The notes below the pieces were generated by a model. It made no database searches. It saw only the letters and a list, made by a program, of their open reading frames with translations, and had not been told where the DNA came from. This document shows, piece by piece, positions 1 to 9,600 of a stretch of DNA of 9,600 nt. The position numbers and the translations under genes are program-made. Source of the stretch: Candidatus Wukongarchaeum yapensis (lineage in GTDB: Archaea; Asgardarchaeota; Wukongarchaeia; Wukongarchaeales; Wukongarchaeaceae); contig JAEOSI010000073.1 of assembly GCA_016840425.1 (NCBI GenBank), forward strand, positions 1-9,600, read 5' to 3'. The first letter of the stretch is position 1. Every line of letters begins with the position of its first letter.

Positions 1-263
1 GTTTTTTTACCGCCAGCATAAATAGACACGAAAACGCCCGGTCTCCCGTCTGGAGTCTTCTCCGGCCTCGGACCCTCGATTCCAGCTTCTACGGGGCACA
101 TTTATGCTTAGTAACCTCTATGGTTACTAATTATCATTGAGACCCCGAATCCGATGATGTTTTGCGCGGTTTCTAGGGCGGTTTCTTCTGTGTCGGCTGT
201 TATGAGTAATCTTATGGCTTGTGCGCCAAAGGCTTCTGCAAATGTTTCTTCGATTTCGACCAT
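1..263 (-). CDS. ftr: Formylmethanofuran:tetrahydromethanopterin formyltransferase, 5' part, split by a 30-nt insert (exon 1 263-132, exon 2 101->1; continues beyond the window)
   Basis: Manual translation: 263-132 gives MVEIEETFAEAFGAQAIRLLITADTEETALETAQNIIGFGVSMI and 101-3 gives MCPVEAGIEGPRPEKTPDGRPGVFVSIYAGGKK. These match the Ftr motifs E-x-TFAEAF, RxLITA, GFGxSxIMCPxEAGI and TPDGRPG. RBS-like AGGGGT lies 7 nt before the ATG. Functional only if the insert is spliced; otherwise a pseudogene. Confidence 0.9.
102..131 (-). other. Candidate BHB-type intron (30 nt) in ftr
   Basis: Insert ATTAGTAACCATAGAGGTTACTAAGCATAA reads I-S-N-H-R-G-Y-stop-A-stop in frame. It contains the perfect stem TTAGTAACC/GGTTACTAA with a 5-nt loop. 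Removing it yields TCA ATG ATA ATG TGC CCC (SMIMCP). Confidence 0.65.
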
Positions 264-270
264 TAATATA

Positions 271-276
271 ACCCCT
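271..276 (-). promoter_or_regulatory. Shine-Dalgarno-like site of ftr
   Basis: AGGGGT on the - strand, 7 nt upstream of the ATG at 263. Confidence 0.55.
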
Positions 277-309
277 ATTAAATATGGTTTGTTCTGTTTT
301 AAGAATTTG

Positions 310-510
310 GATTTTATATTTAATTTTTTCGTGTAATCTTTGAGGGTAGCTCTTTGAAAAAGTTCTAGTATTGTCTTTATATAATTGGGTTTTTAGGGTT
401 TATACCTTCATTTTAGGGGGTAGTTATTTTTCGTGTTATTAATCTAAAAGCTTCTATGAGTTATTAGAGTGGTTTTTTATTTTTTTTATGTTTATTAGGT
501 TTTAAAAGAA
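310..510. repeat. Copy 1 of a decayed ~250-bp direct repeat
   Basis: Collinear matches to copy 2: 310-328 vs 556-574 (18/19), 344-361 vs 596-613 (16/18), 374-399 vs 626-651 (23/26), 481-510 vs 732-761 (26/30). Confidence 0.8.
311..330 (-). promoter_or_regulatory. Possible BRE/TATA promoter for ftr
   Basis: The - strand reads GAAAAAATTAAATATAAAAT about 50-65 nt upstream of the ftr start. The AT-rich context weakens specificity. Confidence 0.35.
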
Positions 511-888: not shown

Positions 889-968
889 GTAATATCGGCA
901 TTTTCTTTAGAGGGCGATCTTACGTAAATTTGTTAATGTGAAAGAATGTTGTCAAGGTGATTTCAAAA

Positions 969-1361
969 ATGGCTGGTAAAGAGTTTTACTTAATCTCTGG
1001 AAGAGATATCAAGCAGGGCACCTCGATGGAGAGGTATGGAAAGCTTTCAGAACAGTATGCTGAAGTAGTTTCGAGGCTGGAGATTAATCCTGAGGATCTT
1101 AAGGCTCTTGGTGTTAATGATGGTGATCCTATAAGGGTCACAAGTGATGAAGGGTCGGTTATTGCTACAGCGAAGTCAAGCACTGATGTTGAGATTGGAA
1201 TGGTCTTTATAGCTTATGGTCCATGGGCTAATGTGCTTAGTGGTACTTATACCCACGGTACTGGGATGCCTGACTTTAAATCGGTTAGGGTGACCATGGA
1301 AAAAGCAGAAGGTGAAAAGGTTCCTACTGTCAAAGAAGTTGTTAAACTGATGTTAAAATAG
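969..1361 (+). CDS. fwdD: Formylmethanofuran dehydrogenase subunit D
   Basis: Molybdopterin dinucleotide-binding domain signatures (INPEDL..LG...GD.IRVTS..GSV; GMVFIAYGPWAN; GMPDFKS). Start placed at ATG 969 because GGTGA (956-960) is RBS-like; the track's GTG 957 lies inside it. Confidence 0.92.
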   Translation: MAGKEFYLISGRDIKQGTSMERYGKLSEQYAEVVSRLEINPEDLKALGVNDGDPIRVTSDEGSVIATAKSSTDVEIGMVFIAYGPWANVLSGTYTHGTGMPDFKSVRVTMEKAEGEKVPTVKEVVKLMLK

Positions 1362-1426
1362 GTTAAAGAGGTGTTAAAAACAAAATAATTCTTTAATATT
1401 TTTGAAAAGTAAGAGGTTTGATAAAA

Positions 1427-2713
1427 ATGGTGGAAGTATATAAAGACGTTGTTTGCACTTTTTGTGGATGCCTTTGCGACGATATCGAAATACACGTTGA
1501 GGATAACAAGATCGTGAAAGCGGTAAACAGTTGTGCTATTAGTCGTGCAAAGTTTTTAGGGCATGAATCTAATGGTGAAAGACAGGTTCTCATAGACGGC
1601 AAAGAAGCTTCTCTTGATGAAGCCATAAAAAAGGCTGCGGAAATACTTGTAAACGCTGAAAACCCGTTGATCTATGGTCTTGCTTCTACGAGTAATGAAG
1701 CCATTAGAAAGTCTATGGAACTGGCTGAAAAAGTTGGGGCAAAGATTGATAACACTTCTTCAGTCTGTCACGCACCAACACTGCTGGCCACACAGTTTGT
1801 TGGCGATCCAAAATGTACTCTTGGAGTCATAAAAAACAGGGCTGATTTAATCATATTCTGGGGTTGTAATCCTACACAAGCTCATCCACGGCACTTTGAA
1901 CGCTACTCTTCAAATGTTAAAGGGTATTTCACTCAAAATGGTAGAGAGGATAAAAAGGTTGTCTTTATTGATGTTCGAGAAACTAGATCTACTAGCAAAG
2001 GAGACCTTTTCTTAAAGATAGAACCTGGTCGTGATTTTGAGTTAATGCTTGCTTTAAGGGCTTTGCTTCGCGGTAAAAAGTTGCAAAAAGACGTTGTTGC
2101 AGGCGTAAAAGTTGAAGATTTAGAAAAAATCATAGACATGTGTAAAAACGCAAAGTTTGGAGTTATATTTTTCGGCTTAGGTCTTACTATGAGCCGTGGA
2201 AAATATCTTAACATTGAATGTGCTATCAGCTTTACAAGAGAGCTTAATAATCACACTAGCTTTCTTATCATACCTATGAGAGGCCACTATAACGTCACAG
2301 GGGCAAATTCCGTGATGACGTGGATCTCTGGTTACGGCTATGCTGTAGACTATAGCAGAGGATATCCCCGCTATAGCCCGGGAGAATTCAGCGCTGTAGA
2401 TGCCCTTGCAGAATACTGTGATGCTGCTCTGATAATTGCTTCTGATCCTGTAGCTCACTTTCCAAAAAATGCTGTAAAAAGAATGGGTGATATGCCCGTA
2501 GTTTTGATTGATCCAAAGCCTAATTGCACTTCTATCGTGGCAAATGTTTATATTCCGAGTTTAAGCGTCGGCATAGAGACTGAAGGTACTGCCTATAGAA
2601 TGGATGGTGTTCCATTATATACGCGAAAAGTCGTCAATGGCCCTGATGGCGTCTTGTCTGATGAAGAAATACTTGAACGCATAATGGAAGAGGTGGATAA
2701 GCTTCAGAGGTGA
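1427..2713 (+). CDS. fwdB: Formylmethanofuran dehydrogenase subunit B (Mo/W-bisPGD catalytic subunit, Cys form)
   Basis: CTFCGCLCDD plus a distal Cys (one [4Fe-4S]); SSVCH metal ligand; RADLIIFWGCNP..AHPRH; PMRGHYNV; GIETEGTAYRMDGVP. ATG 1427 follows GAGGT. W versus Mo cannot be told from the sequence. Confidence 0.95.
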   Translation: MVEVYKDVVCTFCGCLCDDIEIHVEDNKIVKAVNSCAISRAKFLGHESNGERQVLIDGKEASLDEAIKKAAEILVNAENPLIYGLASTSNEAIRKSMELAEKVGAKIDNTSSVCHAPTLLATQFVGDPKCTLGVIKNRADLIIFWGCNPTQAHPRHFERYSSNVKGYFTQNGREDKKVVFIDVRETRSTSKGDLFLKIEPGRDFELMLALRALLRGKKLQKDVVAGVKVEDLEKIIDMCKNAKFGVIFFGLGLTMSRGKYLNIECAISFTRELNNHTSFLIIPMRGHYNVTGANSVMTWISGYGYAVDYSRGYPRYSPGEFSAVDALAEYCDAALIIASDPVAHFPKNAVKRMGDMPVVLIDPKPNCTSIVANVYIPSLSVGIETEGTAYRMDGVPLYTRKVVNGPDGVLSDEEILERIMEEVDKLQR

Positions 2714-2716
2714 ATT

Positions 2717-4435
2717 ATGATGGCTGAAAGTATGATTATTAAAGGCGGCATCGTCTATGATCCCCTTAACGGGGTTAAAGGCGAAAAAACGGATATTATG
2801 ATAAAAGATGGCGTAATAGTTAGCGAAGTACCATCAGATGCTAAAGAAGTGGATGCAAGTGGCAAGATTGTTGCACCAGGCGGCGTCGAAATGCATGCTC
2901 ATGTGGCAGGTCCCAAAGTTAACGCGGGTAGAACTCTTCTTCCTGGAGACTTTAGGAGATACTATGTGCCAAAAACAGACTCCTTAAGGGCCCTTGTAGG
3001 TTATGCTGTACCCACAAACTATACTACAGGGGTCAAGTATACTGAACTGGGATTCACCACAGTTTTTGAGCCTGCAATGGCTCCTCTTGATGCAAGACAT
3101 ACCTTTGAAGAGCTTGAGGACATGCCGAATGCAGATAAAGCTGTTTTTCCTGTTTTCGGCAATAACTGGTTTGTCTTCGATTGCGTGAAAGACAATGATA
3201 TAGAGAAGTTGAAAGCCTTTATCGCATGGATGATGACTGAAACAAAAGGCTATGGTATTAAAATCGTTAATCCTTGTGGAGCCTACATGTGGGCCCATCA
3301 TCACTCAAATGTTACGAGCGTTGATGACGTAGTTCCAGAATATGATGTAACCCCGCGCCAAGTATTAAGAGGCTTAGCCCAAGCCAACGAAGAACTTGGA
3401 TTACCTCACACGATCCATGTACATGCGAACATGCTTGGTAGGGTAGGAAATGTATCAACAACCTTAGATACCCTAAAATGTGTGGAAGATATTAAACCTC
3501 ACCCGAGCAGGGAGCAAGTGATACACCTTACACATCTGCAGTTCAACTGTTTTGGTGAAGACGAGAATCATAGAATTTGTAGTGGCGCAGAAGATTTGGC
3601 AGAATATATAAACAGTCATCCTCAGGTGTCCGCTGACTTAGGACAGGTTATAGTTGATGTTCCCACATGCACAATGACTAGTGATGGTCCGGCAGAGTTT
3701 TTCATTCACAAAGCTCTGGGGCCAAAAGCAAAATGGATTAATGGTGATGTTGAAGCTGAGTGTGGTGGAGGAATAGTTCCTATAACCTATAGAAGCAACA
3801 ATCCTTTCAACGCGATCCAGTGGGCTATAGGCATTGAAACCTGTCTCCTTGTTAAGGATCCGTGGCGAGTAGTAATTACCACAGACCATCCTAACGGTGG
3901 TCCCGCATGGTATTACCCACGCGTTATTTCATGGCTCATGAGTAAGAAAGCACGGGATAAGATGATAGAAACCGTTCACAAATCTGTGCAGGATAAAACC
4001 AGTCTAGTAAACCTAGAACGTGAGTATACTTGGGAAGAAATATTGATCTGTACAAGGGCTGGTCCCGCCAAGCTTCTTGGGTTAAAGTCGAAAGGTCATT
4101 TAGGCGAAGGCGCCCATGCTGATGTTGCAATATATCCAATAGATCCAGAAAAAGTGGACATGGCAAACCAACCAGAAGAGATTGAAAAGAAATTATGGGC
4201 AGACATGGTGATAAAAGACGGAAAGTTCCTAGTAAAGAATGGTAAAACCATCACAACTGAAAGAGGAAGAACATACCTAATAAATCAGTATTACAAGGAC
4301 GAAGAACACAAAAGGATGCTTAAAGATCTTAAAGAGCACTTCCAGAAGTGGTACAGTATAACGTTTAACAATTACCGCATACAAGATGTCTTTGCTCCAA
4401 GGCCTCAAACTGTATCAATAAACCCTATTAGTTAA
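2717..4435 (+). CDS. fwdA: Formylmethanofuran dehydrogenase subunit A (binuclear amidohydrolase)
   Basis: EMHAHVAGPKVN, GIKIVNP (carbamylated Lys position), IHVHAN, HLTHLQF, TTDHPNGGP, GHLGEGAHADVAIY. RBS GAGGTG at 2707-2712. Start could be 2720. Confidence 0.95.
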   Translation: MMAESMIIKGGIVYDPLNGVKGEKTDIMIKDGVIVSEVPSDAKEVDASGKIVAPGGVEMHAHVAGPKVNAGRTLLPGDFRRYYVPKTDSLRALVGYAVPTNYTTGVKYTELGFTTVFEPAMAPLDARHTFEELEDMPNADKAVFPVFGNNWFVFDCVKDNDIEKLKAFIAWMMTETKGYGIKIVNPCGAYMWAHHHSNVTSVDDVVPEYDVTPRQVLRGLAQANEELGLPHTIHVHANMLGRVGNVSTTLDTLKCVEDIKPHPSREQVIHLTHLQFNCFGEDENHRICSGAEDLAEYINSHPQVSADLGQVIVDVPTCTMTSDGPAEFFIHKALGPKAKWINGDVEAECGGGIVPITYRSNNPFNAIQWAIGIETCLLVKDPWRVVITTDHPNGGPAWYYPRVISWLMSKKARDKMIETVHKSVQDKTSLVNLEREYTWEEILICTRAGPAKLLGLKSKGHLGEGAHADVAIYPIDPEKVDMANQPEEIEKKLWADMVIKDGKFLVKNGKTITTERGRTYLINQYYKDEEHKRMLKDLKEHFQKWYSITFNNYRIQDVFAPRPQTVSINPIS

Positions 4436-4452
4436 AGTGGAGGTTAATAATT

Positions 4453-5232
4453 ATGTATCAAGTTTCTTTTAAACTCAAGAAAGAAGCTCCAAGGCTTGAA
4501 ATTGATACGCTTACCCCCGATTGTCTGTGTCTTTGTTCTGCTGAGGAACTTAAAAGCGTGAAAATCTGGCGTGGTAAAAAAGAAGTGCCTGCATCAGAAC
4601 ATTTTGAAGTTAAAGGAGAACCCGGTCCAACGCCAGAAGAAACAATGGTGGTCATAGAAAACTGTAAACCTTTTGTCCACTATGCTGGTATGTTCATGAG
4701 CGGCGGTATCCTTAAAATTAAAGGTTCTTGCGGAAACTACATCGGCTCAAGGATGACTGGCGGCCTAATAGAGGTTGAAGGAAATGTCGGCGACATGGTA
4801 GGCGAAGAAATGAAAGCTGGAAAAATAGTAGTAAAAGGCAATGCAGGCAACTATTTGGGTTCTGCCTGGTGGGGTGATACAACTGGTATGACTGGAGGAC
4901 AAATAGTGGTTGAAGGAAATGTTGGTGAGATGTGTGGACAGTGGATGGAAGGCGGCTACATAAGGGTTAAAGGTAACGCTGGTGACTTCCTTGGCGTAAA
5001 GCAGGTAAGAGGAATAATCCTTGTCGAAGGCGATGCAGGCTACTGTTGTGGAGCAGGAATGACTTATGGTCGCATTTTAGTTTTAGGTAATGTGGAAATC
5101 CTCCCAACATATGAACCAGACGGCACCTACGAACAACTTGACATTTTAGACGAGATATTCAAAGGGCCCTTCCAGCTTTACAAGGGTGACGGTGCAGAGG
5201 ACGGAAAAGGAGACCTTTATGTAAGAAAATAG
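4453..5232 (+). CDS. fwdC: Formylmethanofuran dehydrogenase subunit C
   Basis: Repeated G-x-x-G-x-x-x-G-x-x-M-x-G-G-x-I-x-V-x-G beta-helix units and C-terminal GDGAEDGKGDLY. RBS GGAGGT at 4439-4444. Confidence 0.93.
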   Translation: MYQVSFKLKKEAPRLEIDTLTPDCLCLCSAEELKSVKIWRGKKEVPASEHFEVKGEPGPTPEETMVVIENCKPFVHYAGMFMSGGILKIKGSCGNYIGSRMTGGLIEVEGNVGDMVGEEMKAGKIVVKGNAGNYLGSAWWGDTTGMTGGQIVVEGNVGEMCGQWMEGGYIRVKGNAGDFLGVKQVRGIILVEGDAGYCCGAGMTYGRILVLGNVEILPTYEPDGTYEQLDILDEIFKGPFQLYKGDGAEDGKGDLYVRK

Positions 5233-5259
5233 GATTATTATAAAGGCGGTTTGATAAAA

Positions 5260-6111
5260 ATGGCAGAAGCAAAAGTTGTTCCCGTGAGCGCAAGTTATTG
5301 TGAAGCAATAACTTCTTGGTGCACGAGATTATTAATCACAGCAAAATCCTATGAATGGGCAGAAAATTCAGCTGTCGAGCTGTGCGGTTTTAGCGAAAGC
5401 GCTATCGAAAGACGTGCAAGTGAAACTGAAACCCCTGACGGAAGACCGGGGGTTTTCGTGCAACTCCATAACTATACGAGGGCTGCTTTGAAAGGTATGA
5501 TGTTGGCAAGGGCAAGTCAAACTGTGCTAACTTGCCCGACAACAAGGCTTTTCAACGCTATTTCCGAGGACTCAGAAAAACGATATAAACTCGGTAAAGG
5601 TTTCTCAATGTTCGGAGAAGGCTATCAGAAGCTGGAGAAAAAATGGGACAGAGATATGTACAGTGTGCCAGTAATGGAAGGTTTGTTCTGGCTTGAAGAA
5701 AAATATGGTTTACGTAGAGGCGTTGTAGGCGTTGGTCTCATATTTACAGGAAAAGAACAAAAAGACCTTGTTCAATTCGCTGCAAAAGCCACTGAAAAAT
5801 TGAAGGCAGAGCCTCTGAAAATAATCTTACCCCACCCAGGGAAAAGTGTCAGATTTGGAGAAGCTTTAGCAGCTACACGTCTCAGCAACCTTGGCGTAAG
5901 CGCTAAATTCGATCCGTTGAAAGAACCTAATGCAGAAATAGTTTTCAACGCTATATCGCCAGTCCAAGCAGCATGCGCAATAAGCACAGTTAAGGACATG
6001 GCAAAAGGAGCAGGTGTTAAACTTCTTGGAAGAACCTACGGCAACTGTCTCCGAGGAATGTACGACGACGAAGGCTACGCTTTACGCGAACTAATCTACC
6101 TAGAAAGTTGA
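5260..6111 (+). CDS. Divergent Ftr-family (FhcD-like) protein
   Basis: Keeps RLLITA, TPDGRPG, T-C-PT, FGEGYQ, PVMEG and EIV, but lacks several canonical Ftr motifs. Last gene of the fwd operon. Confidence 0.85.
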   Translation: MAEAKVVPVSASYCEAITSWCTRLLITAKSYEWAENSAVELCGFSESAIERRASETETPDGRPGVFVQLHNYTRAALKGMMLARASQTVLTCPTTRLFNAISEDSEKRYKLGKGFSMFGEGYQKLEKKWDRDMYSVPVMEGLFWLEEKYGLRRGVVGVGLIFTGKEQKDLVQFAAKATEKLKAEPLKIILPHPGKSVRFGEALAATRLSNLGVSAKFDPLKEPNAEIVFNAISPVQAACAISTVKDMAKGAGVKLLGRTYGNCLRGMYDDEGYALRELIYLES

Positions 6112-6179: not shown

Positions 6180-6614
6180 TTGGGAGAACAATTCTTGAAT
6201 TTAGAAAAGAAAAATAAAAAAAGATTAAAATATTCGAGATTATGTCCTGTCACTGAGGTTGATAAGGATTCAGGGGCTAAAGTTTTTTTAAATTTAGACA
6301 AACTTGAAAGAGAAGAGCTCCGTGATAAGTTATGGTTATGCACTTCCTGCTTTCTTTGTGAAGAAGATATCCTAAATAAATCCACCAATTCTAGCCCTAG
6401 AAAGTTAAGCATTGAAAAACGGAGGGGACAAAAGCCTGAGGATAAGCCGTTGCTCTTCCGAAATTTCTTGAAAAGAATCCTTGATACAGGGTATGTTTTT
6501 AAGATGACGGAAGTTCAAAAAGAGGCTAGAAAATCCTTAGGATTACCACCATTACCAAAAACAGGTAAAGAAGAACTAAAATCTCTAATAAAACGTTTAA
6601 AAGAATGTAAATAA
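6180..6614 (+). CDS. HdrC-like Fe-S protein, degenerate (one predicted [4Fe-4S])
   Basis: LWLCTSCFLC and the C-terminal ILDTGY...ARKSLGLP resemble HdrC (LWxCxxCxxC ... xTGH ... RKxLGLP). Start is uncertain (TTG 6180 or TTG 6195). Confidence 0.6.
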   Translation: MGEQFLNLEKKNKKRLKYSRLCPVTEVDKDSGAKVFLNLDKLEREELRDKLWLCTSCFLCEEDILNKSTNSSPRKLSIEKRRGQKPEDKPLLFRNFLKRILDTGYVFKMTEVQKEARKSLGLPPLPKTGKEELKSLIKRLKECK

Positions 6615-6642: not shown

Positions 6643-8487
6643 TTAGTGGCTAGCACATAAAACACAGGGATCAAAACTCCTCACAATTCTCGAGAGTTCT
6701 ACCGCATGTAACAATCCATGTAAAGGTATACTCAATGATGGATTATCTGTATTAATATACTCAATCAAGATGTTTGAAGCAGTAGCTTGGTTAGTTAAAG
6801 CTTGTTCCATAGCCCCTCCTTTATCTTCCTCATCCCTTGGACTAGCATTCCAGTTTGTGGGTGTAATAACCTGATAATTTGTAACACTCTTATCTTTTAT
6901 CTTTATCCAGTGACCTAAAGCACCTCTTGGGGACTCTATAAGGCCACCTCCCTCAAACTCTCCTTTTTCAGGCAACTTAAACTGGTTATAAACATCTTTA
7001 TTACCCTTAATTTTCACTTCCTTTTCCAGCTCATCAATACACCATAAAGCTAAAAGGCAGAAAAGTTGCGTCTCTAAAACTTTAGCATGAATTCTATCCA
7101 TAACCGAACTACTCCACAAATCTCCTTTTAAAATACCCTCATCAGAGGGCTTATACCAGCCGTTTATAATCATTCTAGCCAAGGAACCAACTTCAACTAC
7201 ATAACCATCATACCTTGGCGCTTTTATCCAAGAATATTTATCATTCCAAAGCGTTAGAGGAGTAGTTTGAGGTTCACAAACCTCCCAAGAACTGATATCT
7301 CCGGGCCCTCCTTCTCCCTTATCATACCACGAACTTCCTATTTTTTCAACGATTTTAGAACTTTCAAAGTCGACCAAACTACCATTTATCGAAAATCCTC
7401 CCCGATGAAGCATGCCCCTATTAGGATCACCCCCCTCACTAGCATCAGGATCGGCTAAACAGCCAAAGGATAAGTATCTACTGACTCCTATACCTATGTC
7501 ATACATAGAATACCGATTACCCACGTAATCTGTAAGCTCACCTATTAGATCAAAAGCGTTGCTATTTGTCTCCACATCAATTCTTCCCAAATCGTTGCTA
7601 AGCGTACCCGAAACCCACTCTAAACCGTACTTATTAGCCATGCTTATAACGATCTCTCTCGCTCTAGAATAAGGATTAATACCAGAAGGCAGATTCAAGG
7701 CTCTATCATAAATTAAGTCAGTTCCCACAAAGCGCGCCATCTCTAAAATAAGACTTTTCACATGGCTTATACCCGTAATAGATGGAACCGAGGTCACACC
7801 CCCAGGAACTACAAAATGAGAATGAGGCGATCTTCCTCCAAAAATAGCCAAAGCTTCCCCCATCTTCTCCCTAATGTTTAAAGCTTGCATATAAGAAGAC
7901 CAAGGTGCAAAAGGATCAAACATACTTATCTTCTGAACTTCTGATAAAAAATCTCCTGGATCAGGATTAGCCTCGTAAATGCCTTGTAAAGCACCATAAA
8001 CAATCCCGCTAACCTGCTTATCTTCCCAAGGACTGTAAACCTCGCTATCACCTTCAAATCCTAAGTTAAAAGCGGAAGATCCTTTACTTATCAGGTGTAA
8101 AAGGAGGCCTGAATAGTCAGGAAACATTTTTACATACAAAGTGTAAAGATGGTTTATTATGAAACTAAGCCCTGTAGCAATGTTCCTTATCAATAACGCG
8201 TTTCTTGGAAAGTCATCTTGAGCCAATTCTAAAGCATTTTCTAAAGCTAAAGTTGAAGCGCTCATGTGCTCCATAGAACAGGCACCGCAAATTCTTTGAG
8301 CAATGATGGGAGCATCAAGGGGGTTCCTTTCCTGAACTATCCTTTCAATTCCCCGCCACACCATGCCTGCAACTTTTGCTTCTTGGGTTACGCCTAAATC
8401 TGAACCATCCCCTTGCCAATCGAGGGCTACACCCAATCCTCCCTCACTTCTAGAGAAAGGATTTACAATGATCCTTACTGAACTCAT
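6643..8487 (-). CDS. [NiFe]-hydrogenase large subunit, group 1-like
   Basis: L1 RICGAC (8278-8295), L2 RSFDPCVLCASH, plus RGIE, GGRSPH, KYSWIKAPRY, SPRGALGHW, NYQVITPTNWNASPRD. Start overlaps the small-subunit stop (ATGA 8487-8484). The Glu-codon run GAGGAG could serve as RBS. Confidence 0.95.
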   Translation of the reverse strand: MSSVRIIVNPFSRSEGGLGVALDWQGDGSDLGVTQEAKVAGMVWRGIERIVQERNPLDAPIIAQRICGACSMEHMSASTLALENALELAQDDFPRNALLIRNIATGLSFIINHLYTLYVKMFPDYSGLLLHLISKGSSAFNLGFEGDSEVYSPWEDKQVSGIVYGALQGIYEANPDPGDFLSEVQKISMFDPFAPWSSYMQALNIREKMGEALAIFGGRSPHSHFVVPGGVTSVPSITGISHVKSLILEMARFVGTDLIYDRALNLPSGINPYSRAREIVISMANKYGLEWVSGTLSNDLGRIDVETNSNAFDLIGELTDYVGNRYSMYDIGIGVSRYLSFGCLADPDASEGGDPNRGMLHRGGFSINGSLVDFESSKIVEKIGSSWYDKGEGGPGDISSWEVCEPQTTPLTLWNDKYSWIKAPRYDGYVVEVGSLARMIINGWYKPSDEGILKGDLWSSSVMDRIHAKVLETQLFCLLALWCIDELEKEVKIKGNKDVYNQFKLPEKGEFEGGGLIESPRGALGHWIKIKDKSVTNYQVITPTNWNASPRDEEDKGGAMEQALTNQATASNILIEYINTDNPSLSIPLHGLLHAVELSRIVRSFDPCVLCASH

Positions 8488-9600
8488 GTTTCTGAAAACT
8501 CCTCCTCTTCTTCCTCTATCTCCTTCTTTTCTCTTTCTTTCAACATTTTTCTCCTAATGGCGTGAGCCGCGATCCCTGTCGCTGTTGCAGCGCCTACAAC
8601 TTTACCTGCTGTAACCGCTTTTAATCCACGAATAGGAGATTCTTTCTCAATCTCTTCAAAAAAAGGTCCAAAAAGGTCAGGAAAACCCTTCCCAACACAA
8701 TTAATACAAGGCGCTCCAGCTTGGGGGCACATATTAACTCTATTGTTCCATTTCCTCAAAGAACAGTCAGCATAAGCTACCTGACCCTTACAACCAAGCT
8801 TCCAAGAACATTTAAGTTCTTCCTCTCCAAAACTTGTGGCAAAATTCCCTTGGTCATAGCTGCTCCTCAAAGGACAATTTTCATGAACGGGCTTCTCATA
8901 AATGAATTTCGGCCTATTATCCTCGTCCAAAAAGTCCCTTAAAGCGCTATTAGTATTCCTTATTGTGTATCTCAAATCGCCCCTCGAAGGAGATAAAATA
9001 TCGTTATAATAGTAATAATGTAGATCGAGAACCGTTGTAAGCGTTAAAAAAAACCAGTCAGGGTGTGGAGGACAACCGGGTATATTAACGATTAGCCTTT
9101 TAACCCCGTTTTCCTCAAGAAACTCGCCTAGACTTTTTGCAAGAGTTGGGTTTGGATTCCCGCTCGGAACACCGCCAAAAGAAGAGCAGGTACCAATGGC
9201 AAAAACATAAGCTGCTTCTTCCGCAAACTTAAGAACTAAATCCTGAAAAGTTTTAGGGGTGTTTGGCGGATCCTCCCCAATAATGCAGTAATTTCCATCA
9301 AAACCTGTAGGAATTGAACCTTCTACAAAAAGGATGAATGGACTTAAATCGTCTTCAACCCAATCTTCATACGTTTTTTGCAACCTACCCATCAAACTAA
9401 AAAAGAGGTAATCATCAGACATTGAAGGCGATCTCCCTCCAGTTTTTAACCCCAGTGTTTGGTGGAAATTTAAAGCATCAAAAATAAACTCTAAGTCCTG
9501 TTCTGTAGAAGATACAGAACGATTAGCGTTTACCAGTCTTTGTAATACTTTAAGAAGGTTTAAAGAACCGTTAAGAACACTCAAAGAACAACCAGAACAA
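8484..9600 (-). CDS. [NiFe]-hydrogenase small subunit with C-terminal membrane anchor (5' end outside the window)
   Basis: The frame stays open to the window edge and reads CSGCSLSVLN (9599-9570), so the track start at 9584 is not the real start. Motifs: VEGSIP, IGTCSSFGG, PGCPPHP, HENC, KLGCKG, CPQAGAPCINC, and a hydrophobic tail ending GIAAHAIRR. Confidence 0.95.
   Translation of the reverse strand, partial: CSGCSLSVLNGSLNLLKVLQRLVNANRSVSSTEQDLEFIFDALNFHQTLGLKTGGRSPSMSDDYLFFSLMGRLQKTYEDWVEDDLSPFILFVEGSIPTGFDGNYCIIGEDPPNTPKTFQDLVLKFAEEAAYVFAIGTCSSFGGVPSGNPNPTLAKSLGEFLEENGVKRLIVNIPGCPPHPDWFFLTLTTVLDLHYYYYNDILSPSRGDLRYTIRNTNSALRDFLDEDNRPKFIYEKPVHENCPLRSSYDQGNFATSFGEEELKCSWKLGCKGQVAYADCSLRKWNNRVNMCPQAGAPCINCVGKGFPDLFGPFFEEIEKESPIRGLKAVTAGKVVGAATATGIAAHAIRRKMLKEREKKEIEEEEEEFSET

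What the first reader, a model, noticed from the sequence alone, without database searches (positions are those of the whole stretch)
92..147. BHB-like RNA geometry whose predicted cut sites coincide with the frame-restoring boundaries
Seen on the - strand: exon-exon stem CGGGG(147-143)/CCCCG(96-92), continued by C141-G97, C139-G99 and A138-U100. The central 4-nt helix AUGA(137-134)/GCAU(107-104) has 3 Watson-Crick pairs and one A.G. The 3-nt bulges are UAA(133-131) and AAA(103-101). The intron stem UUAGUAACC(130-122)/GGUUACUAA(116-108) closes loop AUAGA. Established: EndA cuts after the 2nd nucleotide of each bulge. That gives UA|A and AA|A, excising exactly 131-102, one of only four equivalent registers that restore the protein. 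Inference: the A.G pair makes it a relaxed BHB, which would suggest a broad-specificity endonuclease such as the (alpha-beta)2 or epsilon2 types.
Basis: partly seen in the sequence, partly recalled or inferred. Interest (0 to 1): 0.85.

Follow-up and report, generated by a model that had tools for sequence, protein, structure and literature searches.

The report
Spliced mini-intron in Asgard ftr gene
The gene for a core carbon-pathway enzyme (Ftr) of an uncultured Asgard archaeon is interrupted by a 30-base hairpin with the shape that the tRNA-splicing enzyme cuts. Strain comparisons indicate a real messenger-RNA intron, a kind published for only about two archaeal genes, but no RNA data could be obtained.

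Summary
On the minus strand, ftr (start at 263, running off the contig at 1) carries an in-frame 30-nt insert (131-102) with two TAA stops. Removing it gives SMIMCP, the sequence found in 13 insert-less orthologue loci. The two exons abut exactly in the Ftr family profiles.

- **Real DNA:** the insert is present in contigs from four sequencing runs and in five other metagenome contigs.
- **Not a repeat:** it is single-copy in this genome and not repeated in 400 Asgard genomes.
- **Two haplotypes:** they are identical across exactly the proposed motif (147-91), apart from one change that turns a G-C pair into G-U. They differ at the bases just outside (148 and 90).
- **Linked to its exon flanks:** an insert-bearing and an insert-less allele about 1% apart differ by 16 synonymous changes clustered around the insert site. 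The four that fall in the exon-exon helix all strengthen it in the insert-bearing allele.
- **Machinery and precedent:** the genome encodes EndA and RtcB, and nearly all detected tRNAs have introns. I verified similar inserts in Alba and dnaG; the congener keeps the dnaG one.

Weak points: there is no RNA evidence, the central helix is 3 pairs plus A.G and is not thermodynamically favoured, and a second EndA subunit was not found. This scan has noted such mini-introns before in other Asgard genomes. I rate the intron reading at about 0.75.

The parts
132..263 (-). ftr exon 1 (codons 1-44, MVEIEE...GFGVSMI)
   Evidence: The ORF starts at ATG 263. It matches NF002554 profile positions 6-48 and is identical to exon 1 of L039 and L045.
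102..131 (-). 30-nt mini-intron: 1 bulge nt, a 23-nt hairpin, 4 nt of central helix and 2 bulge nt; carries two in-frame TAA stops
   Evidence: Absent as an exact 30-nt gap from G001 and 12 other orthologue loci. Present in 7 sequences, with a single G-C to G-U change in L040/L041.
1..101 (-). ftr exon 2, partial (MCPVEAGIE...), cut by the contig end
   Evidence: Matches NF002554 from profile position 49. The full-length continuation is seen in L039 and L045, 297 codons after excision.
92..147 (-). whole proposed hBHBh' motif
   Evidence: The two insert-bearing haplotypes are identical over 147-91 apart from C111U. They differ at 148 and 90.
138..147 (-). outer (exon-exon) helix, 5' strand; pairs with 92-100
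   Evidence: Pair probabilities are 0.70-0.98 for 147-143/92-96 and 0.78-0.84 for 139-138/99-100. Insert-less allele L044 has weakening synonymous changes at 144, 138, 96 and 93.
92..100 (-). outer (exon-exon) helix, 3' strand
   Evidence: As above.
134..137 (-). central 4-nt helix, exon strand AUGA (Met codon plus the first base of Ile)
   Evidence: Pairs with GCAU 107-104 as 3 Watson-Crick pairs plus A.G. About 2% in the thermodynamic ensemble.
104..107 (-). central helix, intron strand GCAU
131..133 (-). 5' bulge UA|A; predicted cut between 132 and 131
   Evidence: Same bulge sequence and cut rule as tRNA-Thr(CGU) and tRNA-Arg(UCU) of this genome.
101..103 (-). 3' bulge AA|A; predicted cut between 102 and 101
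   Evidence: This cut gives the junction AUA|AUG, the same as in insert-less allele L044.
108..130 (-). intron hairpin h' (9 bp, loop AUAGA)
   Evidence: Pair probabilities 0.96-1.0. Single copy in the genome.

Best explanation
Bases 131-102 (minus strand) are an archaeal bulge-helix-bulge mini-intron in the ftr pre-mRNA. ftr encodes formylmethanofuran:H4MPT formyltransferase. The host is an Asgard archaeon whose nearest relatives' public records are labelled Hodarchaeota or Wukongarchaeota.

**Inferred folding.** In the transcript the intron hairpin (130-108) forms. The exon sequences CGGGGUCUCA and UGUGCCCCG pair around it. The exon's AUGA pairs with the intron's GCAU. This leaves two 3-nt bulges on opposite strands.

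**Mechanism, from established knowledge of the pathway (not shown here).** The splicing endonuclease EndA cuts after the second base of each bulge (132|131 and 102|101). The cuts leave a 2',3'-cyclic phosphate and a 5'-OH. RtcB joins the exons and probably circularises the 30-mer.

**Product.** The spliced mRNA reads AUG AUA|AUG UGC and encodes a normal 297-aa Ftr.

**Population level.** The intron is polymorphic among close strains and travels with about 110 nt of flanking exon sequence by homologous recombination.
For: 1. **Precise 30-nt presence or absence.** Seven insert-bearing sequences stand against 13 insert-less orthologue loci that encode the same SMIMCP junction. The exons abut in NF002554 (48|49) and TIGR03119 (41|42).
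2. **Matching geometry.** The insert consists of 1 nt, the hairpin and 6 nt. This places both predicted cuts on a frame-restoring register.
3. **Real and stable DNA.** Contigs from 4 runs (marine sediment 2017, a run labelled seawater metagenome 2021, marsh 2025) carry it with 0 gaps. So do 5 JGI metagenome contigs.
4. **Not a repeat.** There is 1 copy in the genome. One 2-mismatch hit in 400 Asgard genomes equals the control level.
5. **Conservation footprint.**
   - Window-type and L040/L041 alleles differ at 110 of 843 exon positions (13%).
   - They are identical over 147-91 apart from C111U, which keeps the pair with G127 as G.U.
   - The nearest differences sit at 148 and 90, just outside the outermost pair C147-G92.
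6. **Linked exon flanks.**
   - L045 (insert) and L044 (no insert) differ by 24 nt.
   - 16 of these lie in nt 120-228 around the junction, and all 16 are synonymous.
   - The four in the outer helix (144, 138, 96, 93) all pair better in the insert allele.
7. **The downstream frame stays functional.**
   - All insert alleles that reach the natural stop (L039, L040, L045) are open to it; the partial ones have no stop in what is held (L041 only up to its chimeric 3' end).
   - L040 vs L041 show 6 synonymous and 0 nonsynonymous changes.
   - L041 vs L042 give omega 0.12.
8. **Machinery is present.** The genome has EndA and RtcB. 16 of 18 aragorn tRNAs have introns. The tRNA BHBs in this genome often have 3/4 central pairs and UA|A / AA|A bulges.
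9. **Same architecture in other genes of this genome.**
   - Alba carries a 36-nt insert with an in-frame TAG. The spliced product aligns without gaps to its paralogue.
   - dnaG carries a 32-nt frameshifting insert. Its exons abut at NF003108 positions 26|27.
   - The congener G001 lacks the ftr insert but keeps the dnaG insert. Its three changes are one G.U to A-U in the stem and two at positions I read as unpaired.
Against: - No RNA evidence is available.
- The central helix has an A.G mismatch. Its BHB register has only about 2% ensemble probability, and the MFE prefers a different 2-bp register.
- Only one EndA subunit was found.
- There are only two independent insert haplotypes, so part of the identity could reflect recent common descent or co-transfer rather than constraint. 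My rough Poisson estimates for the footprint give P of about 0.006-0.03.
- Many close strains lack the insert, so it could be a young, mildly deleterious insertion.
- The motif alone is not discriminating genome-wide.
- An ATG directly follows the insert, and a GAGG lies 14 nt upstream of it, so expression in two pieces cannot be excluded.
Confidence: 0.75

Rival explanations
1. The insert is not spliced. It is a DNA-level hairpin insertion that either inactivates ftr (a young pseudogene allele) or splits it into two polypeptides. These would be a 51-aa N-piece ending ..SMIISNHRGY and a 253-aa C-piece. The C-piece would start at ATG 101-99 by termination-reinitiation at TAA-GCA-TAA-ATG.
For: - The stops are followed directly by a native ATG, and a GAGG lies 14 nt upstream.
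- Gene callers already predict the 51-aa and 253-aa pieces.
- An ftr-like paralogue lies in the same window (5251-6111) and might buffer a loss.
- The insert is polymorphic among strains.
- Frequent recombination with intact alleles could keep the downstream frame clean.
Against: - It does not explain why the insert has exactly the 1 + hairpin + 6 layout.
- It does not explain why synonymous exon sites in the helix co-vary with insert presence, or why the identity footprint matches 147-92.
- L040 and L041 both carry the insert, yet differ by 6 synonymous and 0 nonsynonymous changes.
- The same block sits in at least three genetic backgrounds and several habitats, which is unlikely for a null allele.
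- The dnaG insert of the same architecture is frameshifting, has no ATG at exon 2, and is kept in the congener.
- G001 keeps both ftr and the paralogue intact.
Confidence: 0.17
2. Ribosomes bypass the insert during translation, as in phage T4 gene 60 or yeast mitochondrial 'byp' elements. A hop over a hairpin between matched take-off and landing codons would do this.
For: A hairpin sits at the start of the gap, stops lie inside it, and AUG (137-135) and AUG (101-99) could serve as matched codons.
Against: - An AUG-to-AUG hop would delete the conserved Ile-Met of SMIMCP, which every insert-less orthologue has.
- The AUA at 105-103 lands out of frame.
- No stop follows the take-off codon.
- The frameshifting dnaG insert and the Alba insert have no matched codon pairs that I could see.
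- I know of no precedent in archaea (own knowledge).
Confidence: 0.03
3. The insert is an assembly artefact near a contig end, or a copy of a dispersed repeat (MITE or REP-like).
For: The insert lies about 100 nt from the contig end.
Against: - The identical sequence appears in independent assemblies from several studies.
- It is single-copy in the genome and not repeated in 400 Asgard genomes.
- The only flanking direct repeat is 3 nt (AAT), which the two A-rich bulges explain.
- The contig end coincides with a recombination breakpoint at codon 77/78, where co-occurring strains diverge.
Confidence: 0.01

Closest known systems
cbf5 pre-mRNA intron of Crenarchaeota (Aeropyrum, Sulfolobus, Desulfurococcales; PMC2738675, reviewed in PMC10485636)
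   Same: [quoted passage not shown] It is cut by the tRNA splicing endonuclease and the exons are ligated. It shows lineage-specific presence or absence, and its hosts have (alpha-beta)2-type EndA.
   Different: Here the host gene is a metabolic enzyme rather than an RNA-modifying one, and the phylum is Asgard. The intron is only 30 nt and is polymorphic among strains about 1% apart, with a co-transferred exon tract. cbf5 splicing was shown experimentally; this one was not.
BHB introns of Asgard tRNA genes (PMC11291895; bioRxiv 10.64898/2026.10.13.758758)
   Same: The motif is the same, the machinery is presumably the same, and this genome's own tRNAs have the same UA|A / AA|A bulges. The preprint reports repeated gains.
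   Different: The insert lies in an mRNA. Half of the motif is therefore built from codons, and splicing must restore a reading frame. Those papers report tRNA introns only.
HVO_1309 mRNA of Haloferax volcanii (PMC7714728, discussed in PMC10485636)
   Same: It is another mRNA that the review reports as cut by EndA and spliced.
   Different: It comes from a euryarchaeon with a different EndA type, and the gene is different. I did not check the position or size of that intron.
Translational bypass elements (T4 gene 60; mitochondrial byps), from own knowledge
   Same: Short, stop-containing, hairpin-bearing inserts in coding sequence that still allow a full-length protein.
   Different: They act at the ribosome and need matched take-off and landing codons. 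Here such codons would delete two conserved residues.

Membership tests
Archaeal BHB (EndA/RtcB-spliced) intron | Two 3-nt bulges on opposite strands, each 3' of its strand of a 4-bp central helix | tested here: inconclusive
   The topology is correct and the bulges are UAA and AAA. The central helix is 3 Watson-Crick pairs plus A.G, with about 2% ensemble probability. Real tRNA introns of this genome also show 3/4 central pairs.
Archaeal BHB (EndA/RtcB-spliced) intron | Flanking helices h (exon-exon) and h' (intron) | tested here: met
   There is a 9-bp perfect h'. The outer helix has 5 GC pairs plus 3 further pairs, with P 0.7-0.98 for most of them (C141-G97 only 0.25).
Archaeal BHB (EndA/RtcB-spliced) intron | Cuts after the 2nd nucleotide of each bulge yield the functional mature RNA | tested here: met
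   The junction AUA|AUG equals that of insert-less alleles. The exons abut in the family profiles. The rule was calibrated on the 37/38 junction of tRNA-Thr(CGU).
Archaeal BHB (EndA/RtcB-spliced) intron | The genome encodes a splicing endonuclease and an RtcB ligase | tested here: met
   EndA is at C113:735-1346 with both domains. RtcB is at C137.
Archaeal BHB (EndA/RtcB-spliced) intron | Structure conserved among homologues (compensatory or neutral changes only) | tested here: met
   There is one change in 56 nt between the two haplotypes, G-C to G.U. The sample is small, with two haplotypes.
Archaeal BHB (EndA/RtcB-spliced) intron | Spliced RNA, a circular intron, or in vitro cleavage observed | not testable with these tools
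   No RNA holder was listed.
Broad-specificity (alpha-beta)2 EndA host | A catalytic alpha subunit plus a structural beta paralogue | tested here: inconclusive
   An alpha-like subunit was found, and it is closest to 3p1z_B, 3ajv_B and 2zyz_B. No second paralogue turned up by phmmer or Pfam in a 92%-complete MAG.
MITE / REP-like dispersed hairpin repeat | Many copies at unrelated sites | tested here: not met
   There is 1 copy in the genome, and the count over 400 Asgard genomes is at control level.
Programmed translational bypass | Matched take-off and landing codons that restore the orthologous protein | tested here: not met
   AUA...AUA lands out of frame, and AUG...AUG would delete the conserved Ile-Met.
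Self-splicing (group I/II) intron or other curated RNA family | A match to a ribozyme or RNA family model | tested here: not met
   There is no Rfam match at the insert, and 30 nt is too short.

The most novel reading that the evidence does not exclude
BHB mini-introns in protein genes are an active, horizontally spreading population-level feature of Asgard archaea. On this reading, the ftr intron moves between strains as a block together with the exon bases it needs for its own splicing motif. That is a homing-like co-conversion tract without a homing endonuclease. mRNA introns would then be gained and lost on the timescale of strain divergence in the closest prokaryotic relatives of eukaryotes.
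Probability: 0.3. Interest if true: 0.8.

Novelty: new member of a known kind. Interest (0 to 1): 0.65.

Why it matters
**Rarity in the literature.** In the papers I could search, endonuclease-spliced mRNA introns in archaea rest on cbf5 and HVO_1309. A 2023 review says more probably remain to be found (PMC10485636). The Asgard papers I found describe only tRNA introns.

**What this case adds.**
- It is a spliced intron in a central Wood-Ljungdahl enzyme of a lineage near the Hodarchaeales.
- I verified companion inserts in Alba and dnaG.
- If splicing is confirmed, protein-mediated mRNA splicing would be routine in relatives of the eukaryotic ancestor.

**Practical consequence.** Gene callers split or drop such genes, here into 51-aa and 253-aa fragments. 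Metabolic reconstructions and pseudogene counts for Asgard MAGs are therefore biased.

**Intron dynamics.** The strain-level polymorphism with a co-converted exon tract makes it possible to study how such introns are gained or lost.

Tried and rejected
- **RNA evidence.** No RNA holder was listed for the window, so splicing could not be observed.
- **Insert-less DNA form.** Read laying showed no insert-less joint in the four DNA runs. That says nothing about RNA.
- **MFE folding.** It does not reproduce the central BHB helix. I did not count this as refutation, because the tRNA BHBs of this genome are equally relaxed. I did not fold those.
- **Genome-wide motif census.**
  - The first script timed out.
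  - The loose vectorised scan gave about 1.0 million motif hits and 33,474 ORF-fusing candidates.
  - Even with inner stem >=6 there were 5,260.
  - The motif alone cannot find mRNA introns without homology, so I abandoned the census.
  - The scan also missed the Alba and dnaG inserts, because their outer helices have only 1 and 0 pairs.
- **Second EndA subunit.** A phmmer search of all ORFs and a Pfam search at E <= 10 found nothing.
- **First dN/dS table.** My ungapped table is invalid for pairs involving L039 or L043, which have a one-codon indel. I used only the pairs without an indel and the realigned counts.
- **Missing DNA.** DNA for P0002 could not be fetched.
- **Target-site duplication.** Only a 3-nt AAT repeat is present, and the bulges explain it.
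- **Rfam.** Nothing matched at the insert.
- **Contig flaws.** L040 has a 22-nt gap near its start and L041 is chimeric at its 3' end. I treated both as flaws in the contigs and masked them.

Full report
**What is there.** The window is the first 9.6 kb of contig C47 of a 2.16-Mb MAG (277 contigs, 92% complete).

On the minus strand an ORF starts at ATG 263 and reads MVEIEE...GFGVSMI. It then runs into ISNHRGY-stop-A-stop and resumes in the same frame as MCPVEAGIEGPRPEKTPDGRPG... until the contig ends at base 1.

Pfam FTR (PF01913) matches 263-15 with '2 TAA inside'. The gene is formylmethanofuran:H4MPT formyltransferase. It is transcribed divergently from a cluster of formylmethanofuran-dehydrogenase-type genes (my reading; Pfam checked only for 957-1361) that ends in an ftr-like paralogue.

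The congener G001 has the same synteny and an intact 297-aa ftr. Its public record is titled 'Candidatus Hodarchaeota archaeon'. Aligned to the window it lacks exactly 30 nt. A close protein fragment is labelled Wukongarchaeota. The organism is therefore an Asgard archaeon, and the runs that hold this stretch are labelled marine sediment, seawater and marsh metagenomes.

**Check of the observation.**
- The 9-bp hairpin and the GC-rich exon-exon stem dominate the ensemble (P 0.96-1.0 and about 0.98). The fold is better than shuffles (z = -3.2).
- The central helix in the BHB register (A137-U104, U136-A105, G135-C106, A134.G107) has only about 2% probability. The full BHB structure scores -19.3 kcal/mol against an MFE of -23.9.
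- The geometry is canonical. Each bulge lies 3' of its central-helix strand. The insert is exactly 1 nt + hairpin + 4 nt + 2 nt. Cuts after the second bulge base therefore remove 131-102.
- Exon 1 ends at position 48 and exon 2 starts at position 49 of NF002554. In TIGR03119 the split is 41|42.
- Applying the same cut rule to this genome's tRNA-Thr(CGU) gives the canonical 37/38 junction. Its bulges are also UA|A and AA|A. Several tRNA introns here have only 3 of 4 central pairs.

**Is it real DNA, and is it a repeat?**
- Logan contigs of four runs cover the insert with 0 gaps and 0-1 mismatches. The runs are marine sediment 2017, a 'seawater' run from 2021 and marsh 2025. No insert-less joint was seen.
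- Five JGI metagenome contigs carry it.
- The hairpin occurs once in the genome.
- In 400 Asgard genomes there is only one 2-mismatch hit, which is the level of the reversed-pattern control.
- No Rfam family matches.

This rules out an assembly artefact and a MITE-like repeat.

**Comparative evidence.** The Ftr clade is small; the next relatives are at 48% identity. It contains both forms:
- 297-aa insert-less genes: G001, L044, L046-L056.
- Insert-bearing genes that gene callers split into 51-aa and 252/253-aa pieces: window, L039, L042, L043, L045, L040, L041.

All insert-less genes encode S-M-I-M-C-P at the site. L044 even has the nucleotide junction ATGATA|ATG.

The gene is a recombination mosaic. 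L039 and L045 are identical over nt 1-233 including the insert, 21% different over 234-565, and nearly identical again after that.

L045 (insert) and L044 (no insert) differ by only 24 nt.
- 16 of these lie between nt 120 and 228, straddling the insert site at 132|133.
- All 16 are synonymous.
- The four that fall in the outer helix (window 144, 138, 96, 93) are G, A, C, C in the insert allele, and all of these pair. In the insert-less allele they are A, U, U, U, giving two mismatches and two wobbles.

The second insert haplotype (L040/L041) differs from the window type at 13% of exon positions.
- It is identical from 147 to 91 apart from C111U, which keeps the pair with G127 as G.U. That change is tolerated in RNA of this strand only.
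- The nearest differences are at 148 and 90, immediately outside the outermost pair C147-G92.
- My rough Poisson estimates for so few changes are P of about 0.006-0.03.
- With only two haplotypes, recent co-transfer is an alternative to constraint. Both would fit an intron that needs these exon bases.

Downstream reading frames stay open in all insert alleles: those that reach the natural stop (L039, L040, L045) are open to it, and the partial ones have no stop in what is held. L040 vs L041 show 6 synonymous and 0 nonsynonymous changes. L041 vs L042 give omega 0.12.

The contig end at window base 1 coincides with the codon-77/78 breakpoint. There, two different continuations are seen in one run, which explains why the MAG's ftr is truncated.

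**Machinery and genomic context.** The genome encodes one EndA with both domains (203 aa) and RtcB.

EndA is much closer to 3p1z_B, 3ajv_B, 2cv8 and 2zyz_B than to 1a79. From memory, the first group are catalytic subunits of crenarchaeal (alpha-beta)2 enzymes and 1a79 is the alpha4 enzyme. No beta subunit was found.

Sixteen of 18 tRNAs that aragorn detects have introns.

Following leads from earlier notes of this scan, I verified two more mRNA inserts of the same architecture.
- **Alba (C201).** It has a 36-nt insert with an in-frame TAG. BHB cuts restore ..GNKPVMNYV.., which aligns without gaps to the intact paralogue on C254.
- **dnaG (C87).** It has a 32-nt frameshifting insert (GGCC aa|a ... 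GGUU aa|a). Its exons abut at positions 26|27 of NF003108.
- **Congener.** G001 lacks the ftr insert but keeps the dnaG insert. It has three changes: one G.U to A-U in the stem and two at positions I read as unpaired.

If these genes must be expressed, messenger splicing by EndA is needed in this genus. That raises the prior for ftr.

**Mechanism.** The following is established for the pathway and inferred here. EndA recognises the relaxed hBHBh' motif and cuts 132|131 and 102|101. RtcB ligates the 2',3'-cyclic phosphate and 5'-OH ends. The mRNA then encodes full-length Ftr, and the 30-mer is probably released as a circle.

What is shown here: the DNA facts, the fit of the geometry, the conservation pattern and the presence of the enzymes. 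What is not shown: cleavage, ligation, and the spliced RNA or protein.

**Rivals.**
- **Unspliced insertion (0.17).** This would be a null allele, or a two-piece protein made by reinitiation at TAA-GCA-TAA-ATG with a GAGG 14 nt upstream. It remains possible. It does not explain the layout, the helix-specific synonymous differences, the footprint or the frameshifting dnaG case.
- **Translational bypass (0.03).** It would delete two conserved residues or land out of frame.
- **Artefact or repeat (0.01).** This is excluded by the evidence above.

**Comparison with the known.** The closest published case is the cbf5 pre-mRNA intron of Crenarchaeota, including its lineage-specific loss (PMC2738675). 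A 2023 review counts cbf5 and HVO_1309 as the archaeal mRNAs spliced by the endonuclease and expects more (PMC10485636). Asgard papers in the searchable library report abundant tRNA introns but no mRNA introns (PMC11291895; bioRxiv 10.64898/2026.10.13.758758).

This scan has repeatedly noted similar mini-introns in other Asgard genomes. Those notes are AI leads, none of the summaries I saw reports RNA evidence, and I did not use them as support.

I file the ftr insert as a new member of a known kind. Its particular interest is the strain-level presence or absence together with a co-converted exon tract.

**Verdict.** Confidence that this is an EndA/RtcB-spliced mRNA intron is about 0.75. Interest is 0.65.

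Noticed in passing
window 957-6111 (+): A gene cluster of formylmethanofuran-dehydrogenase type (my reading). It comprises a 134-aa molybdopterin-binding D-like subunit (957-1361), ORFs of 431, 572 and 259 aa, and a 286-aa ftr-like paralogue (5251-6111). The paralogue has a strong FTR N-lobe but only a weak FTR_C match. The order recalls the Fhc (formyltransferase/hydrolase) arrangement, with the true ftr divergently transcribed next to it.
   Followed up: partly
window 6643-9584 (-): [NiFe]-hydrogenase large subunit (613 aa) and small subunit (366 aa) genes lie downstream of the cluster. A 144-aa ORF at 6180-6614 has no Pfam match.
   Followed up: partly
window 1 (contig end) and codon 77/78 of ftr: The contig ends exactly where the alleles that share the insert-bearing 5' block start to diverge (21% over nt 234-565 between L039 and L045). 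One run shows two different continuations beyond base 1. Strain mosaicism probably broke the assembly.
   Followed up: partly
G000 C201:423-465 (+): The Alba gene carries a 36-nt in-frame insert with TAG. Its central helix is CGGU/GCCG and its bulges are AA|A and UA|U. Excision restores KPVMNYV, which is co-linear with the intact Alba paralogue on C254.
   Followed up: yes
G000 C87:7479-7510 (-); L061; L062 in G001: dnaG carries a 32-nt frameshifting insert with AA|A bulges. Its exons abut at NF003108 positions 26|27. The congener keeps the insert with structure-preserving changes.
   Followed up: yes
window 264-330 (-) versus L035: The 70 nt upstream of the ftr start are almost identical between the window and the congener, although synonymous sites in the gene have diverged. 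This is probably a conserved promoter or leader.
   Followed up: no
L040:1459-1500 and the 3' end of L041: L040 lacks 22 nt near the ftr start, which breaks its frame there. L041 switches to unrelated sequence after codon 281. These are probably assembly flaws in those public contigs.
   Followed up: no
G000 C113:735-1346: EndA has a 25-residue Lys/Glu-rich N-terminal extension. No second EndA paralogue was detected in the MAG.
   Followed up: partly
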